DNA of 64,000 nt, from positions 384,942-448,941 of the forward strand of contig JAQUQO010000001.1 of the NCBI GenBank assembly GCA_028716045.1, read 5' to 3'. How positions within the stretch are numbered: position 1 is the first letter of the stretch; each line of letters starts with the position of its first letter. The DNA is from Patescibacteria group bacterium. GTDB taxonomy: Bacteria > Patescibacteriota > Patescibacteriia > JAQUQO01. The translations under genes and the position numbers were made by a program. Under the pieces are notes generated by a model. That model had not been told where the DNA came from, did not search any database, and saw only the letters and a list, made by a program, of their open reading frames with translations. Positions 41,380-63,952 of the stretch are shown piece by piece.

Positions 41380-41844
41380 ATGGACGAAAAAACAAAAAAC
41401 TATATTGCGGTCGTCAACCTTATTACGGGCTTCGTTATAGGTTGTTTAGTGGCTACTCTCGTCGTAATTTTGGTATTAGAAGATGCAGAAACAACCGCCC
41501 AAACCACTACCTGCCCCGAGTCAAAACCTTGTCCGGTGTGTCAAGAACAGCCCGCCCCTAACTGCACCAACCTACCGATGGTGGTAGGAGAGGTGGAGGA
41601 AAAGGGTAGGTATGTTGGGTGGACTAGCCCCGATACATGTTGGCTAAAAATCTCATTTGTAGCCCTGCCAGAATGGGGTTTCAATGACAGAACAGTGACG
41701 TATATCTTTGTTGACGTGCCAAATGAACAATCCGTCATCTGCCAGGCTAAAATCGGCGACACATTACCTCTACGTTACGACGTGAAGACCAAAAAGGTCA
41801 TTCTCAACTTCAACAATGAAGTTGAAATACGAGTCAAAGAGTAA
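41380..41844 (+). CDS. Secreted/membrane-anchored Cys-containing hypothetical protein
   Basis: N-terminal TM plus six Cys. GC content is higher than in the flanks. Confidence 0.45.
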   Translation: MDEKTKNYIAVVNLITGFVIGCLVATLVVILVLEDAETTAQTTTCPESKPCPVCQEQPAPNCTNLPMVVGEVEEKGRYVGWTSPDTCWLKISFVALPEWGFNDRTVTYIFVDVPNEQSVICQAKIGDTLPLRYDVKTKKVILNFNNEVEIRVKE

Positions 41845-52207: not shown

Positions 52208-52360
52208 TAAAAATAACCGCCCCGAAACTCGGGACGGTTATTTATTTCTAAACGTTTGACACCTTTAAATAAAAATGATATCGTGTCATATTGTCCTAAT
52301 TTTTGGACAATTTTAATAATCTTTGGTCTTTTAAAAACTATAAATAAAGGAGAAACTGAA

Positions 52361-53560
52361 ATGAGAAAGTTAACTGGTTTTGAAAAGGAACGACGCCAAT
52401 GGTTAGTGAAAGAACTTCGTTATTTAGGGCTAACCACTCCGGAAATCGCCAAGGCCATCAATTTTAGCGAATCCCTGGTTCACGCCATTCTTAAAGAATG
52501 TAAAGTTAATAAAAATAAGCAAAAAAGAACCGAAACCTTCGGTTTGGCGTTTCGGCGTTATGCTGAACTAGAAACGACAGAACTGAAAACAAGGCAAGAG
52601 GAAGAACTTTGTTGTATTTTGAGAAAATGGCTGGGGATTGAGAGAAAACGCATTGTCGATTTTTTTGAAGGCGTTGTTGAAACTTTGCAAGAGCTTACCA
52701 TTCTTTTCTACCCGCCCGGATGTGAAGCGTACATCAATCTTCTCCGCGTGGTGTTCGGCGAAAAAATTTACCAAGGCATATTCTCTTCGGGAATTATGAA
52801 TGATGAAATGCTTCTTAAGTATTTGCAGGAAGAAATAGACGATGAAATTGCTAAACGGTGGGAAAAATATTTGAAAGAAGTCGCCGATGGCGCTATCCCG
52901 CCTCCCCATTCTCTCGCAGGAGCAAAAGCGCCCCTAATGAGAGAATATCTTGCTGAATATCGTTCTCAAATTATGCCCACCCTAACTGACACTTCTCTCA
53001 AATACATTGACGCCATTATCTCGAGCACTCTGACTGAACGCGAAGCGCGAATTATTCGCCTGCGGTTTGGCTTAAAAGATGGTGGCGTTCCTCACACCTT
53101 GAAAGAAATTGGACAAAAGCTTGGTGTTACTCTAGAGCGTATCCGCCAGATTGAGGGCAAAGCACTCCGAAAACTCCGCCATCCGTCAAAGGGGCTTAAA
53201 TATCTTGGACGACCGCTTCACAGCACTCTTGAAAAAGAGATTAAAGAAAAAACAAGGGAAATAGAAGCGGCGCTAAGGATCGCTGAAATGACAACCTTAT
53301 CAAAAAAATACCCCCTGTTACCAATGCTTCTAAGACCAACAGAGGAGATAAAGTTCTCAATCCGCGCCTCTAACTGTTTAAGAAATGCTGACATTAAATA
53401 TATCGGCGAACTTGTCCAAAAAACGGAAAAAGAATTGCTCAAGACCAGATACTTCGGGCGTAAATCACTCCGTGAGATAGAAGAAGTTCTAGCGGACATG
53501 GGGCTTTCTCTCGGTATGAATCTTGACGATGAACTGAAAGAAGCAATAAAACAACTCTGA
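52361..53560 (+). CDS. Chimeric transcription protein: N-terminal domain of unknown function, then sigma-70 region-4 HTH, then RNA polymerase alpha-subunit C-terminal domain (alpha-CTD)
   Basis: [15 protein letters not shown]...[31 protein letters not shown] aligns with RpoD region 4.2 at about 60% identity. [53 protein letters not shown] aligns with E. coli RpoA alpha-CTD at about 60% identity. No sigma region 2 or alpha N-terminal domain is present. Start chosen at an ATG after AAAGGAGAAA. Confidence 0.75.
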
Positions 53561-59004: not shown

Positions 59005-59673
59005 TCATAATTTCACACCAAGCTTTGATATCTTCATATCGTGTGGAATAAAAATCTGCCGATTAGTTCTTAAATTCTCAGCTACGGCCTTTCTTAATGA
59101 ATATTGCAAGATCACATCGCCACTTCCTGAATGATGACCCAAAGCTCTAGTTGTAGAATCAAGACCGTTTCTTTCTTCTTTAATATTCACTGGCTTTATC
59201 GGCACTTTCTGTCCTCGAAATTTAGCAACAATTAGTCGTCCTGACACAATCGAAAAATTAAATGAAATCAGGCCAAAATAATCATTTGCATTAAGAACGA
59301 CATCAAGCGGGGTTATTTGCTTCTGATATTTTGGCAATTCATTAAAGTTTTTAATTAAATCTTTTAGTATCTCCTGAAAACCAATCTCTGATATTTTTTG
59401 TCTCTCCCCGCATTTTTGAACAATGATATATTTTTCGCCATCATTATTTTTGTGTTTTATACTCACACGGCCACTAGCATGCCACGATACGTGATCTATC
59501 TCCTTTTTAACTTCATCGTTCTGGCTATCTATAAACTTAGTAGATGGTATGTATAAAATATCTCCCGTATATGTTCTAATAATAATCGTCCCGACGTTAA
59601 AATAATCCTCCCTAGATTTAATAATAACCTTATAGTCAACTGATTTTTTAATTTTCCCGGCAATTTCTTCCAT
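59005..59673 (-). CDS. Hypothetical protein (AT-rich gene)
   Basis: 222 aa with no recognised motif. Composition differs from the core genes. Confidence 0.4.
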   Translation of the reverse strand: MEEIAGKIKKSVDYKVIIKSREDYFNVGTIIIRTYTGDILYIPSTKFIDSQNDEVKKEIDHVSWHASGRVSIKHKNNDGEKYIIVQKCGERQKISEIGFQEILKDLIKNFNELPKYQKQITPLDVVLNANDYFGLISFNFSIVSGRLIVAKFRGQKVPIKPVNIKEERNGLDSTTRALGHHSGSGDVILQYSLRKAVAENLRTNRQIFIPHDMKISKLGVKL

Positions 59674-60439: not shown

Positions 60440-62443
60440 CTAATTACCCTGATTAGGTTGTGGCGGTTGTTGGGGCTGATTAGGTGGCGCGGGCGGGCTG
60501 GGCTGTGTGGGTTGAGTTGGCGGCGTGGGCTGGGCGGGCGGAGTTGGTTGGGTCGGTAATGTTGGCTGGCTGGGCGGAGTCGGCTTAGCGGGTTTAGCGG
60601 GCTGCTCTGACTCTCCGGACTGCGTCGGTTTAGCGGGCTTACTAGGTTTAGTGGGCTGTTCGGGCGGAGTCGGTGGCGTTGGTTGACCGGATTCTGTGGA
60701 TGGAACGGGTTGAGTGGTCTGTTCCGGTTTGACGGGCTTGGCCGCCTTTTGACAGTTCATTACACAAACATCCTTGTTAGTCGTACAGGCGGAGCTTTTC
60801 GCGGTAACTAGAGCGTGACAAGCGGTCTCTGCTGAATCGCATACCCTGGCAATACACGCACGCATCACTTCTGCTGTCGAACGGTTACCTTCAGCGTCTT
60901 TGGTCTCACATGTTACTTCTCTGCAATACTGTCCTTGTGAACGGCAAGCCTCGGTCTCCACACTTAGTGCAGAGATACAATCTCTTCCAGTTAATTCACA
61001 ATCTTCAATACACTTCACCGGATTGGGATTAGTATTCTGACCTTGTCCTCCTCCTTGACCAGAACCCGGATTAAAACCCTCGCCTTGATTGGGACCGCTA
61101 TTACTCGGACCACCATCTTGGCCCCCGCCGCCTTGTCCCTGCTCTCGATCACCTTGACTACCTTGATTTTGTCCATCTTGACCCTCTGGACGAGCCGGAG
61201 GAATTGGGGTAAATGATTCAAAACAAGTTTTCATTTGTGTGCCGATGGTTGGGTTGGGCATCACGCTTCCGCTTTTTAATTTTTCAATGGTATCTGCGCC
61301 TAAAGAGGAAGTCAGACAAACCGAAATTTCCGCCGGCATATTATTAAGAGATTCTTGTATTTTTTGTTGGCCTTCCTGCATGGTCTTCTGGTCTTCCTCG
61401 GAAATCATGCCATTGTCTTTGGCAAAATTGAAACAAACTTCGGAATTGGCCGCGGCGTTGCAAAAGGCGTCGCATTCTTCCTTAGTTTTACATCCGCCGG
61501 GACCTTCACCGCCGGTTTTCATGGCCGCTTGCGCTTCATCGGTAGTCATTGCTCCCGTGGCCTCGGCAAATTTAACGCATTCTTCAAAATGGGCCTCTTG
61601 AGAACAATAATCCTGGCATCCCTCTTCGCCGCAGCCGGGGAGCTCGACTCCTTCTTCCATGGCATTAAGCATTTTTTGCAATTGTCTCATCTTTGGAGGA
61701 GATAGGATTCCCGCTGTTGTAGCAAAACTTCCGCATTCGGCCGCGTGTTCCGAACCTTCGCGACAATAAACTTCACATTCAGTACCATGACACGGAGGCA
61801 CGGCGCCATTTTTTATGGCGGTTAAAACTTTTCGCGCGTTTTCCTGCTCCGCGGCCGGCAAAATTCCGGCTTCGGTGCCGAAGTTTATGCACGCTTCCAT
61901 GCCTTTGGCGGACGCGCAATAATTTTCACAATCTTTCCGGCCGGTGCAGCTTAAGGGCTTAACGCCGCTTTTAACGGCGGTGACAATCTTCTTAGCTTCT
62001 TGTAAATCTTCTTCGGGCAGTAACTCGTTTTTCTCCGCGAAAGCAACGCAGGTTTCCAGATTGTCTTTGTTATCGCAATAATCCTCGCAAGCGTCCGTTC
62101 CCTGGCATTCGCCGGGGCCGGTCATGCCGACGGCCTGGAACTTTTTGGCCGCGGATACCTCTTCCGCCTTCATTAAGCCGTGGTCTTCGCCGAAGGCGAG
62201 ACAGACATCGGTATTCTTCGTCTCATTGCAAAAAACTTTGCAATCTTCCCTGTCTTTGCAATTTCCCAATTCCTTGACGGGATACTGAACGCTTTCCACG
62301 GCGGTTTGATTTTGAGCTTGAGGTGTCTCTGTTTTAACCTCTTCTTGCGCCATTGCGAATGAGCCGATGACAAAAACGGAGATGATCGCAAACGAAACTA
62401 CGATTAAAACTCTAAAAATATTTTTGTTCATATTTTTATTCAA
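60440..62443 (-). CDS. Secreted surface protein with six tandem roughly 45-aa four-Cys repeats, a Gly/Gln-rich segment, a second Cys-rich module and a Pro/Thr-rich C-terminal tail
   Basis: Signal peptide. Repeats follow the pattern C-x5-C-x3-C-x9-C...(F/V)(A/G)(E/T)xxG(L/I/M), for example GNCKDREDCKVFCNETKNTDVCLAFGEDHGLM. The tail is PTPPTPPEQPTKPSKPAKP... Confidence 0.6.
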   Translation of the reverse strand: MNKNMNKNIFRVLIVVSFAIISVFVIGSFAMAQEEVKTETPQAQNQTAVESVQYPVKELGNCKDREDCKVFCNETKNTDVCLAFGEDHGLMKAEEVSAAKKFQAVGMTGPGECQGTDACEDYCDNKDNLETCVAFAEKNELLPEEDLQEAKKIVTAVKSGVKPLSCTGRKDCENYCASAKGMEACINFGTEAGILPAAEQENARKVLTAIKNGAVPPCHGTECEVYCREGSEHAAECGSFATTAGILSPPKMRQLQKMLNAMEEGVELPGCGEEGCQDYCSQEAHFEECVKFAEATGAMTTDEAQAAMKTGGEGPGGCKTKEECDAFCNAAANSEVCFNFAKDNGMISEEDQKTMQEGQQKIQESLNNMPAEISVCLTSSLGADTIEKLKSGSVMPNPTIGTQMKTCFESFTPIPPARPEGQDGQNQGSQGDREQGQGGGGQDGGPSNSGPNQGEGFNPGSGQGGGQGQNTNPNPVKCIEDCELTGRDCISALSVETEACRSQGQYCREVTCETKDAEGNRSTAEVMRACIARVCDSAETACHALVTAKSSACTTNKDVCVMNCQKAAKPVKPEQTTQPVPSTESGQPTPPTPPEQPTKPSKPAKPTQSGESEQPAKPAKPTPPSQPTLPTQPTPPAQPTPPTQPTQPSPPAPPNQPQQPPQPNQGN

Positions 62444-62723
62444 AAGGATTAGTTTTTATATTTGAAAAAGGATTGGTATTTTTATACGGATTGGCGTCGG
62501 GAACATCTTCCAACGGATTAATTACTACGGCGTCCATGTCCGGCAAAACGCCCTTGGCCACGCCTTGGTTGATGGATTCGACCGCTTCTTGAATATCCGT
62601 AACCGCTTGTTCGGCTTGTTTGGTAACGGAAGGTTTGTGAAATTTAATCCACAAAAAACAACCTCCTCCGGCCAAGCCCAGGATTAACATCGCCAAAACG
62701 ACGATTAATAATTTTTTGTTCAT
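62436..62723 (-). CDS. Small secreted protein
   Basis: Signal peptide plus a 60-aa mature chain. Confidence 0.4.
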   Translation of the reverse strand: MNKKLLIVVLAMLILGLAGGGCFLWIKFHKPSVTKQAEQAVTDIQEAVESINQGVAKGVLPDMDAVVINPLEDVPDANPYKNTNPFSNIKTNPFE

Positions 62724-62983: not shown

Positions 62984-63060
62984 CAGCTCCGGGACTTGGA
63001 TTCGAACCAAGATAAGCAGCTTCCTCGCCAAAGGCGAGTGCGCCTCGGGCGCAAAAGGCT
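62984..63060 (-). pseudogene. 3' half of a tRNA-Gln(TTG) (from anticodon-loop A37 to the acceptor end) preceded by a roughly 38-nt structured module
   Basis: Minus strand: AGCCTTTTGCGCCCGAGGCGCACTCGCCTTTGGCGAGG then AAGCTGCTTATCTTGGTTCGAATCCAAGTCCCGGAGCTG. The last 39 nt are identical to the 3' half of the intact tRNA at 63073-63143. Confidence 0.7.
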
Positions 63061-63072
63061 TTGTCAGCACAG

Positions 63073-63143
63073 CTCCGGGACTTGGATTCGAACCAAGATA
63101 AGCAGCTTCAAAGGCTGCTGTCCTACCATTAGACGATCCCGGA
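63073..63143 (-). tRNA. tRNA-Gln (anticodon TTG), CCA not encoded; 11-nt leader and trailer are perfectly complementary
   Basis: TCCGGGA...GCAGC-CTTTGAA-GCTGC...CTTGG-TTCGAAT-CCAAG-TCCCGGA-G. Flanks are TGTCAGCACAGC (5') and CTGTGCTGACA (3'). Confidence 0.85.
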
Positions 63144-63156
63144 GCTGTGCTGACAA

Positions 63157-63396
63157 TTATTTCAAAATTTGATCTAAAAATTTTCTCCCTTGCCCTGACT
63201 TCAAAAATTTTTCTCTTTGCATGGCCTCTGCCCGCGTTAGATAATCTTCTCTATAAATTAGTTGCCACGGACGATGTCCTTTAGTAAATCTATAATCGCC
63301 CTTATTGTGACGCCGCAATCTCTCGCCGGCATCTTTTCCACTCCCGACATAACGTTTGCCATCTTTCAAACTTTTTAAAACGTAGGTTTGATACAT
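63157..63396 (-). CDS. GIY-YIG family nuclease (stand-alone, 79 aa)
   Basis: MYQTYVLKS...GKRYVGSG...RLRRHNKG...LIYRE...REKFLK shows the GIY-YIG catalytic core pattern (Y..Y.G...R...H...E). Confidence 0.8.
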   Translation of the reverse strand: MYQTYVLKSLKDGKRYVGSGKDAGERLRRHNKGDYRFTKGHRPWQLIYREDYLTRAEAMQREKFLKSGQGRKFLDQILK

Positions 63397-63544: not shown

Positions 63545-63952
63545 TTATATCTTTTTTAACGCTTTGTCAATCGCTTCGTTTACCAAAAAATCAGCATCTT
63601 TGTTATCTTCTCGATAGATATGCTTAAAGGTGACTTTTTTAAAGCCCATGGTCAGATTCCAAACTTTCACAAACAACGGTGCCAAATCTTTGTCTTTTAC
63701 TTTATATTCCCTGTTCATCTGTTTAGCCACCAATTCGCTGTCCAAAAAACATTCCACTTCCACGGCTTTTAATTCTTTGGCTTTTTCTAAACCAAAAATC
63801 AGCGCTTTATATTCCGCTTGGTTATTAGTCGTTTCTCCGATATATTTCCCCGCTGACCAAAGGACTTTTTTTAAATCTTTTATTACCGCCCCAATTCCTG
63901 CCGGCCCCGGATTACCTCGCGCCCCGCCATCGGTATATACTTTTAATTTCAT
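63545..63952 (-). CDS. rnhA: Ribonuclease HI
   Basis: VYTDGGARGNPGPAGIGAV...TNNQAEYKALIFGLE...DN are the RNase H catalytic DEDD residues and context. Confidence 0.9.
   Translation of the reverse strand: MKLKVYTDGGARGNPGPAGIGAVIKDLKKVLWSAGKYIGETTNNQAEYKALIFGLEKAKELKAVEVECFLDSELVAKQMNREYKVKDKDLAPLFVKVWNLTMGFKKVTFKHIYREDNKDADFLVNEAIDKALKKI

What the first reader, a model, noticed from the sequence alone, without database searches (positions are those of the whole stretch)
60440..62443. Large secreted protein built from six tandem 4-Cys repeats plus a Pro/Thr-rich wall-spanning tail
Six roughly 45-aa repeats share a C-x5-C-x3-C-x9-C framework followed by an amphipathic helix-like segment. A Gly/Gln/Asn-rich low-complexity region follows, then a second 10-Cys module, then a 90-aa PT/PQ-rich C-terminal tail. 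The architecture suggests a surface-displayed, metal- or ligand-binding repeat protein. I do not recognise the repeat family.
Basis: seen in the sequence. Interest (0 to 1): 0.55.

Follow-up and report, generated by a model that had tools for sequence, protein, structure and literature searches.

The report
Secreted cysteine-stapled helical-repeat protein, Patescibacteria
This gene encodes an exported protein made of six ancient cysteine-stapled three-helix repeats plus a proline-rich tail; it belongs to a large, unnamed family found so far almost only in ultra-small Patescibacteria, is always paired with a tiny membrane protein, and is probably a cell-surface scaffold whose function has never been tested.

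Summary
ORF 60440..62431/62443 (-) encodes a 663/667-aa protein. It has a Sec-type signal peptide and six 47-53-aa repeats with C-x4/5-C-x3-C-x8/9-C, followed by a 2-Cys helical cap and a G/Q/N linker. Then come a 12-Cys (not 10) module and a roughly 100-aa Pro/Thr/Gln tail.

The repeats are not recent. There is no DNA-level repeat, and each repeat position is more conserved between species (56-69% identity) than repeats are to each other (26-48%). AlphaFold2 predicts a confident all-helical array, three helices per repeat.

Nothing matches it significantly in Pfam, NCBIfam, PADLOC or PHROGs, in PDB sequences, or by Foldseek against PDB and viral models.

The family is large. A single-repeat profile finds 1,854 clusters (at 50% identity), with 6-13 repeats each, and 408 species genomes encode a relative, nearly all named as Patescibacteria. 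In 83 of 85 loci a ~90-aa membrane-anchored protein with an invariant NP...NPF...NPF C-terminus lies directly upstream. No other neighbour is conserved.

Cysteine counts are even in 258 of 266 members, which favours disulfides over metal sites.

Best reading: a disulfide-stapled surface or envelope scaffold working with its small membrane partner. Function is untested. I class it as a new variant of a known kind, of moderate interest.

The parts
60440..62431 (-). Gene for the repeat protein (663 aa from the ATG at 62431; an in-frame TTG at 62443 would give 667 aa). The stop codon is at 60440-60442.
   Evidence: ORF list. Identical to NCBI PHD51_00765, 663 aa. Sequence around the start.
62348..62431 (-). 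Sec-type signal peptide (MNKNIFRVLIVVSFAIISVFVIGSFAMA|QEE): positively charged n-region, about 20-aa hydrophobic core, AxA cleavage motif.
   Evidence: Read from the sequence. The same layout occurs in the 120 relatives. No signal-peptide predictor was available.
62123..62275 (-). Repeat 1 (aa 57-107; Cys 62, 68, 72, 81)
61964..62122 (-). Repeat 2 (aa 108-160; Cys 113, 119, 123, 132)
61808..61963 (-). Repeat 3 (aa 161-212; Cys 166, 172, 176, 185)
61649..61807 (-). Repeat 4 (aa 213-265; Cys 218, 223, 227, 237)
61508..61648 (-). Repeat 5 (aa 266-312; Cys 271, 276, 280, 289; its third helix is shortened)
61352..61507 (-). Repeat 6 (aa 313-364; Cys 318, 324, 328, 337)
61193..61351 (-). Helical cap (aa 365-417) with two conserved Cys (376, 407); the end of the confidently predicted domain.
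   Evidence: pLDDT above 90 up to about residue 415 with three helices. Conserved Cys columns.
61025..61192 (-). Gly/Gln/Asn-rich low-complexity linker (aa 418-473), predicted disordered.
60746..61024 (-). 12-Cys module (aa 474-566) made of two 6-Cys halves, with spacings 3,6,10,6,4 / 17 / 4,6,10,6,3. Among the sampled relatives it is seen complete only in P0002, and its start is seen in the partial protein P0012. Other relatives carry different Cys modules at this position.
   Evidence: Low AF2 confidence.
60443..60745 (-). Pro/Thr/Gln-rich tail (aa 567-667), predicted disordered or extended. It has no LPXTG motif, no transmembrane segment and no hydrophobic C-terminal peptide.
   Evidence: Short tandem DNA arrays at 60486-60552.
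62436..62723 (-). Partner gene: a 95-aa protein with an N-terminal transmembrane helix, a second helix and an extended C-terminal tail NPLEDVPDANPYKNTNPFSNIKTNPFE. Its stop codon lies 4 nt before the ATG of the repeat gene.
   Evidence: Found directly upstream on the same strand in 83 of 85 loci. Consecutive NCBI locus tag PHD51_00760. AF2: helices 3-29 and 32-58, coil 59-95.

Best explanation
The gene encodes a Sec-exported, acidic, all-alpha repeat protein of a Patescibacteria bacterium. After signal-peptide cleavage, six three-helix modules plus a cap stack into one rigid helical array.

In each module the CxxxC pair on helix 1 is probably disulfide-linked to the Cys in the preceding loop and the Cys in helix 2. 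That would give two staples per module and about 13 disulfides in the domain. Behind this conserved domain come a disordered linker, a lineage-variable cysteine-knot module and an extended Pro-rich spacer.

The protein is made together with a small single-pass membrane protein whose invariant, extended NP/NPF-rich tail is the most likely docking partner. Together they form a two-component cell-envelope or surface scaffold. The conserved helical array and the small anchor would form the constant part, and the Pro-rich stalk with its variable modules would form the variable, ligand- or host-facing part.

Shown here:
- the anatomy of the protein
- the age and conservation of the repeats
- the predicted helical fold
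- the size of the family and its restriction to one lineage
- the gene pairing
- the even number of cysteines

Inferred:
- the disulfide pairing
- a physical interaction with the small protein
- the orientation in the envelope
- a scaffold or adhesion role
For: Anatomy and export signal.

Fold: AF2 gives pLDDT above 90 across residues ~45-415 (model numbering), all helical, three helices per repeat.

Age of the array:
- The same repeat position is 56-69% identical between species, against 26-48% between different positions.
- There is no DNA-level repeat.
- 77 of 84 paired loci have exactly six full repeats.

Cysteines:
- All four Cys are present in 2027 of 2046 repeat instances.
- The Cys count of the mature protein is even in 258 of 266 members and ranges from 24 to 140 in steps of two.
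- CPR bacteria are enriched in MdbA-like oxidoreductases and VKOR (PMC6744442).

Family size: 1,854 clusters at E <= 0.001, and relatives in 408 species genomes, nearly all named as Patescibacteria.

Partner gene:
- It lies directly upstream in 83 of 85 loci.
- It is the only conserved neighbour.
- It has a transmembrane helix and an extended invariant tail.

Surface context:
- ConA-like lectin domains are fused in 3 of 19 long relatives scanned.
- The C-terminal half carries different Cys modules in close relatives.
- The window also encodes a PBP transpeptidase and a Mur ligase, so a wall is present.
Against: There is no experimental datum and no informative homologue.

No coordinates were available, so Cys-Cys distances and the shape of the array were not inspected.

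The interaction with the small protein is inferred only from gene adjacency. The number of NP motifs does not track repeat number, though with little variance that test has little power.

The window protein lacks any recognisable anchor of its own: no LPXTG, no transmembrane segment, and none of the hydrophobic C-terminal peptide seen in 88 of 120 relatives.

Many of these organisms live in anoxic water and lack quinone synthesis, which makes 19 extracellular disulfides demanding.

The even-Cys statistic counts related sequences, not independent events.
Confidence: 0.5

Rival explanations
1. Extracellular metal or cluster binding. Each invariant 4-Cys group would coordinate a metal ion (Zn, Cu, Fe) or an Fe-S cluster, making the protein a metal store, buffer or redox wire rather than a disulfide-stapled scaffold.
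For: Four invariant Cys per repeat. A strongly acidic domain, pI 4.6 and net charge -27. An anoxic lifestyle in which thiolates would survive.
Against: Cys numbers rise in steps of two, including totals not divisible by four, in the variable modules too. Two of the four Cys sit one helical turn apart (CxxxC) inside a helix and one sits in the next helix; from general knowledge this is the geometry of disulfide-stapled helical hairpins rather than of Cys4 sites. There are no conserved His/Asp partners; the His of the family consensus is absent from most repeats of the window protein. Sec export of an unfolded chain gives no cofactor-loading route. CPR bacteria have disulfide-forming enzymes.
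Confidence: 0.15
2. An envelope-biogenesis or housekeeping factor. The helical array would act as a chaperone or assembly platform at the outer face of the membrane, for example for wall, pilus or S-layer assembly, together with the small membrane protein. It would not bind any external ligand.
For: Unusually high conservation for a surface protein: 40-58% identity over about 95% of the N-domain query among the 120 closest hits, whose source names span several candidate phyla. The strict pairing with a membrane protein.
Against: There is no conserved linkage to wall, pilus or division genes. Lectin fusions and swapped C-terminal modules point outward. A long Pro-rich spacer is unnecessary for a factor that stays close to the membrane.
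Confidence: 0.15
3. A freely secreted effector or inhibitor that acts on the host or on competitors. Its many disulfides would serve to resist proteases.
For: The window protein has no anchor motif. Kazal-like stretches occur in two relatives, one of them with no single stretch passing on its own. The Cys spacing weakly resembles scorpion toxins, but below threshold.
Against: Effectors usually evolve fast and vary in copy number. Here the domain is conserved across 408 species genomes, and only one copy is seen in this window. The co-encoded membrane protein and the Pro-rich stalk argue for retention at the cell. Most relatives have a hydrophobic C-terminal peptide.
Confidence: 0.1
4. The S-layer or another lattice-forming envelope protein of these bacteria.
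For: It is acidic, exported and lineage-wide. From my own knowledge, CPR cells are reported to have an S-layer-like envelope whose protein is not identified.
Against: From general knowledge, S-layer proteins are typically very poor in Cys, whereas this protein has 38. There is no SLH or other lattice or anchoring domain. About 40% of the chain is predicted disordered.
Confidence: 0.07

Closest known systems
Helicobacter cysteine-rich proteins (HcpA/B/C) and COA7: Sel1-like-repeat proteins in which each helical repeat is bridged by a disulfide
   Same: These are exported (or intermembrane-space) all-helical tandem repeats, each repeat locked by conserved cysteines, that form a solenoid used as a binding scaffold. 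The comparison rests on my own knowledge plus PMC8892353 and PMC3851747, both seen only in the search listing and not read.
   Different: Sel1-like repeats are two-helix units of about 36 aa with two Cys. Here the units have three helices, about 52 aa and four Cys. There is no Pfam Sel1 hit. The only Sel1 structure listed by Foldseek is insignificant (6ork_B, E = 7.2).
Armadillo-type three-helix repeat solenoids (importin-alpha, beta-catenin)
   Same: One short and two longer helices per repeat, stacked into a continuous array. From my own knowledge, such arrays bind extended peptides, which is what the NP/NPF tail of the partner protein looks like.
   Different: This is a resemblance of topology only. 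There is no sequence or significant fold match. Armadillo repeats are cytoplasmic, about 42 aa long and free of cysteine staples. Peptide binding was not tested here.
Disulfide-stapled helical hairpins (twin Cx9C CHCH domains, twin Cx3C small Tims, plant alpha-hairpinins)
   Same: A CxxxC pair on one helix face, used to staple neighbouring elements.
   Different: Those domains have symmetric twin motifs on two helices and occur singly. Here the pattern is C-x5-C-x3-C-x8-C, with one Cys in a loop, repeated six or more times.
Gram-positive wall-spanning surface proteins with Pro-rich spacers (LPXTG proteins)
   Same: An N-terminal signal peptide, a folded functional region, and a long Pro/Thr-rich C-terminal spacer.
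   Different: There is no LPXTG motif, no C-terminal transmembrane segment and no positively charged tail in the window protein. Most relatives end instead in a short amphipathic peptide (consensus about SLLGSxxxxFxxxFxR) of unknown role.
Scorpion short toxins (Pfam Toxin_2, the CS-alpha/beta fold)
   Same: The C-x5-C-x3-C spacing of the first three cysteines.
   Different: The score is below threshold (15.6 against 25.1 bits, E = 0.021). The repeat lacks the downstream CxC strand and is predicted all-helical.

Membership tests
Sel1-like repeat / Helicobacter cysteine-rich protein family (Pfam PF08238) | Sequence match to the Sel1 repeat profile | tested here: not met
   hmmscan against Pfam at E <= 10 returns only a sub-threshold Toxin_2 hit.
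Sel1-like repeat / Helicobacter cysteine-rich protein family (Pfam PF08238) | Two-helix (alpha/alpha) repeats of about 36-44 aa with one disulfide | tested here: not met
   Three helices and four Cys per 47-53-aa repeat. Foldseek match to a Sel1 structure has E = 7.2.
Scorpion short toxin, CS-alpha/beta (Pfam PF00451) | Score above the gathering threshold, and an alpha-helix stapled to a beta-strand through CxxxC...CxC | tested here: not met
   15.6 bits against a cut-off of 25.1. The model is all-helical and there is no CxC.
LPXTG sortase-anchored surface proteins | C-terminal LPXTG-like motif, then a hydrophobic segment, then basic residues | tested here: not met
   The C-terminus is ...QPPQPNQGN. 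The C-termini of relatives also lack LPXTG.
S-layer proteins | SLH or another lattice or anchoring domain; Cys-poor composition | tested here: not met
   No such Pfam or NCBIfam domain. The protein has 38 Cys.
Cys4 metal-binding repeats (zinc-ribbon, metallothionein or Fe-S type) | Metal bound by the four cysteines | not testable with these tools
   Only indirect evidence against: Cys parity in steps of two and the placement of the Cys in helices.
The unnamed Patescibacteria six-repeat family (orthologues of NCBI PHD51_00765) | Signal peptide, IQYPVxELGNC start of the mature chain, six 4-Cys three-helix repeats, 2-Cys cap | tested here: met
   The relatives are 40-58% identical to the window protein over about 95% of the N-domain query. 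Six motifs sit at matching positions.
The unnamed Patescibacteria six-repeat family (orthologues of NCBI PHD51_00765) | Small transmembrane protein with a C-terminal NP...NPF...NPF tail encoded directly upstream | tested here: met
   Window 62436..62723. The same arrangement is found in 83 of 85 loci.
The unnamed Patescibacteria six-repeat family (orthologues of NCBI PHD51_00765) | Hydrophobic or amphipathic C-terminal peptide after the Pro-rich region | tested here: not met
   Present in 88 of 120 relatives and absent from the window protein and its closest clade. It is therefore a common feature, not a defining one.

The most novel reading that the evidence does not exclude
The two genes encode a previously undescribed envelope apparatus specific to one lineage of ultra-small bacteria. 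A membrane anchor would thread its extended NP/NPF tail into the groove of a new disulfide-stapled three-helix-repeat solenoid fold. That base would carry a Pro-rich stalk with exchangeable tip modules (cysteine knots, lectins) used to attach to host cells. This would be a sortase-independent way of displaying adhesins and a candidate determinant of host contact in Paceibacteria-type Patescibacteria.
Probability: 0.25. Interest if true: 0.7.

Novelty: new variant of a known kind. Interest (0 to 1): 0.5.

Why it matters
Patescibacteria (CPR) make up a large share of bacterial diversity. They live attached to other cells, yet very few of their surface components are known.

This family is large: 1,854 clusters at 50% identity, and relatives in at least 408 species genomes. 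It is strongly conserved, restricted to this lineage, exported, and absent from the domain libraries searched. It also has a confidently predicted fold with no solved relative and a fixed partner gene.

That makes it a concrete and easily testable candidate for a core envelope or host-contact component. It is also a clean case for defining a new domain family. If the cysteines are all disulfide-bonded (about 19 in this protein), the family would be a marker of active oxidative protein folding outside the cell in organisms thought to be strict anaerobes.

Tried and rejected
- **Domain libraries.** Pfam, NCBIfam, PADLOC and PHROGs scans of the protein and its partner gave nothing above threshold.
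- **PDB by sequence.** Profile searches with the full family and with a single repeat gave a best E of 0.11, not meaningful.
- **Homologues of the 12-Cys module.** The word index found no candidate, so I compared relatives by eye instead.
- **Disulfide connectivity from natural variants.** I looked for repeats that had lost two Cys together. None exist.
- **NP motif number against repeat number.** No correlation, rho = -0.06, but there is almost no variance to work with.
- **Further conserved neighbours.** None beyond the small gene.
- **A disulfide oxidoreductase or VKOR inside the window.** None recognised. The one candidate, 41380..41844 with a CPVC motif and a transmembrane segment, has no Pfam hit.
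- **Literature.** Searches for a description of this family found nothing specific.
- **Recent repeat expansion.** Rejected.
- **Phage or defence origin.** Rejected.
Full report
**What is in the sequence**

The minus-strand ORF 60440..62443 is real. It is identical to the NCBI protein PHD51_00765 of a 'Patescibacteria group bacterium' MAG on a 927,681-bp contig. That record starts at the ATG at 62431 and gives 663 aa.

Reading the translation (numbering from the TTG) gives this layout:
- aa 5-32: a Sec-type signal peptide ending AMA|QEE.
- aa 57-364: six tandem units of 47-53 aa, each with four Cys. Spacing is x5/x3/x8 in four units, x4/x3/x9 in unit 4 and x4/x3/x8 in unit 5.
- aa 365-417: a cap with two more Cys.
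- aa 418-473: a Gly/Gln/Asn-rich stretch.
- aa 474-566: a module with 12 Cys arranged as two 6-Cys halves.
- aa 567-667: a Pro/Thr/Gln tail.

The 4-Cys motif occurs six times, against 0.028 expected in shuffles.

**The repeats are ancient, not a recent expansion**

Tandem Repeats Finder and the repeat finder detect no repeat-length DNA identity in the repeat region.

Among 115 relatives with six regularly spaced motifs (40 of them compared pairwise), a given repeat position is 56-69% identical between species. Different positions are only 26-48% identical, both between and within proteins. Six motifs sit at matching positions in nearly all of the 120 closest relatives, and 77 of 84 loci have exactly six full repeats.

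All four Cys are present in 2027 of 2046 repeat instances. The rest are truncated alignments, apart from one repeat with a substituted third Cys.

**Predicted structure**

With a 120-sequence alignment, AlphaFold2 gives pLDDT above 90 over residues ~45-415 (model numbering). The fold is all helical: one short and two longer helices per repeat, plus a three-helix cap. The linker, most of the 12-Cys module and the tail fall below 50.

The second and third Cys lie one turn apart in helix 1, the fourth lies in helix 2, and the first lies in the loop before helix 1. I could not inspect coordinates, so the pairing C1-C3 / C2-C4 is an inference from helix geometry.

The domain is acidic, with pI 4.6 and net charge -27.

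**Comparison with known families**

No curated library recognises the repeat:
- Pfam gives only a sub-threshold Toxin_2 hit, which is a coincidence of Cys spacing.
- NCBIfam, PADLOC and PHROGs give nothing.
- PDB sequence searches with the family profile and with a single-repeat profile give nothing meaningful.
- Foldseek against PDB and against viral models gives nothing below E = 0.3. The weak PDB hits are generic helical-repeat proteins such as PPR, TAL, Sel1 and MO25.

The nearest analogues are therefore analogues by principle only:
- Disulfide-bridged Sel1-like-repeat proteins (Helicobacter Hcp, COA7).
- Armadillo-type three-helix repeats.
- CxxxC-stapled helical hairpins.

The defining features of each were tested and not met.

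**Family and distribution**

The N-terminal 388 aa find 482 clusters at 90% identity. The 120 best are all unnamed or 'hypothetical', 500-680 aa long, and 37-58% identical to the query over most of its length (about 95% for most).

A profile of the single repeat, searched against 1.84 billion representatives, finds 1,854 proteins at E <= 0.001 and 1,008 at E <= 1e-30. They have 6-13 matched repeats and lengths up to 1,555 aa. So repeat number does vary across the wider family, although it is fixed at six in the orthologous group.

In GTDB species representatives, 408 stretches encode a relative. The best 80 lie on 80 different contigs. The record names are Patescibacteria of the Parcubacteria/Paceibacteria type: Jorgensen-, Nomura-, Yanofsky-, Wolfe-, Taylor-, Lloyd-, Nealson-, Staskawicz- and Terrybacteria, plus Minisyncoccia. 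A few are labelled Magasanik- or Peregrinibacteria, and two have implausible labels that probably reflect binning errors.

Only one gene in the window carries the repeat.

Directly upstream lies a 95-aa ORF (62436..62723). It is on the same strand, and its stop is 4 nt before the ATG of the repeat gene.

tblastn with this ORF finds a homologue in the same position and orientation in 83 of 85 fetched loci. An all-against-all comparison of every ORF in these loci shows that it is the only conserved neighbour; the next best family occurs in 9 loci.

The small protein has an N-terminal transmembrane helix, a second helix, and an extended tail. The tail has invariant Asn-Pro positions and ends in ...NPFxxIKTNPF(E/Q/K). 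It has no family assignment.

The functional unit is therefore a two-gene cassette.

**The C-terminal half is variable**

Close relatives replace the 12-Cys module with other small Cys modules. These include a truncated copy of the N-terminal repeat, or a CGDGxC...CPxDC unit. Linker and Pro-rich lengths also differ.

The scan of 19 long relatives gave:
- Three with a ConA-like lectin domain (Laminin_G_3).
- Two with Kazal-like stretches.

The last 18 residues are hydrophobic (mean Kyte-Doolittle above 0.3) in 88 of 120 relatives. In the sampled C-termini this is a short amphipathic peptide of consensus about SLLGSxxxxFxxxFxR. The window protein and its nearest clade lack it.

**Disulfides or metal?**

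The number of Cys in the mature chain is even in 258 of 266 family members. It takes values from 24 to 140 in steps of two, including totals not divisible by four. This is the signature expected when every Cys is paired. The sequences are related, however, so the nominal p-value overstates the evidence.

Méheust et al. 2019 report that an MdbA-like thiol-disulfide oxidoreductase family is enriched in CPR bacteria and is often adjacent to VKOR (PMC6744442). A machinery for extracellular disulfides therefore exists in this group, though none was recognised inside this window.

I therefore favour about 19 disulfides in this protein over metal sites, and I keep metal binding as a rival at about 0.15.

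**Most likely mechanism**

I read the protein as a secreted, disulfide-stapled, acidic helical array with these three parts:
- The constant part of an envelope or surface scaffold, made by the array.
- A partner, the co-encoded small membrane protein, whose extended NP/NPF tail probably docks onto the array.
- A Pro-rich stalk that carries lineage-variable modules.

Which end faces outward is unresolved. Conservation of the N-domain plus the membrane partner, together with variability and lectin fusions in the C-terminal half, suggests the N-domain is membrane-proximal. The hydrophobic C-terminal peptide of most relatives would fit the opposite orientation.

NP-motif number does not track repeat number, but there is almost no variance to work with.

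**Literature**

Several full-text searches found no description of this family. The metatranscriptomic study of archaea-parasitising Paceibacteria lists other highly expressed exported proteins, none recognisable as this one (PMC10936435).

**Verdict**

The feature is a real, ancient and strongly conserved member of a large, unnamed, lineage-restricted family with a fixed partner gene and a predicted fold without solved relatives. In kind it is a new variant of something known: a cysteine-stapled helical-repeat surface protein on a Pro-rich stalk. Function remains untested.

Interest 0.5.

Noticed in passing
window 62984-63023 (-) and 63070-63109 (-): An exact 40-nt copy of the 3' half of tRNA-Gln(UUG) (gene 63072-63143) lies 86 nt downstream of the original, between the tRNA and the two-gene cassette. 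It could be a leftover attachment-site duplication from an integration event or a degenerate tRNA copy. Zero matches are expected by chance.
   Followed up: partly
window 52256-53560 (+): A 434-aa ORF combines a sigma-70 region 4 domain (E = 6e-21) with an RNA polymerase alpha-subunit C-terminal domain (E = 3e-20). This is an unusual pairing of two promoter- and activator-contacting modules in one protein.
   Followed up: no
window 59005-59673 (-): A 222-aa ORF between TypA/BipA and a NUDIX gene has no Pfam hit and only a negligible PHROG hit. It sits in the lowest-GC stretch of the window (37% against about 43%).
   Followed up: no
window 61239-61705 (+), and the matching antisense ORFs in 82 related loci: Long antisense ORFs inside the repeat gene recur across the related loci. 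They cluster only because they lie opposite conserved coding sequence, so they are shadow ORFs rather than genes.
   Followed up: yes
window 41380-41844 (+): A 154-aa ORF with an N-terminal transmembrane segment and a CPVC motif has no Pfam match. I considered it as a possible membrane-anchored thiol-disulfide oxidoreductase, but nothing supports that.
   Followed up: partly
relatives P0149, P0224, P0239 (C-terminal regions); P0141, P0240: Some long family members carry a ConA-like lectin domain (Laminin_G_3) after the repeats, plus an extra N-terminal segment. Two others have Kazal-like stretches.
   Followed up: partly
loci L064 and L083: Two contigs that carry the cassette are labelled Gammaproteobacteria and Aenigmatarchaeota in their records. 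These are probably mis-binned Patescibacteria contigs.
   Followed up: no
window 63157-63396 (-) and 63545-63952 (-): A stand-alone 79-aa GIY-YIG nuclease-domain protein and an RNase H-like protein lie just upstream of the duplicated tRNA-Gln segment.
   Followed up: no
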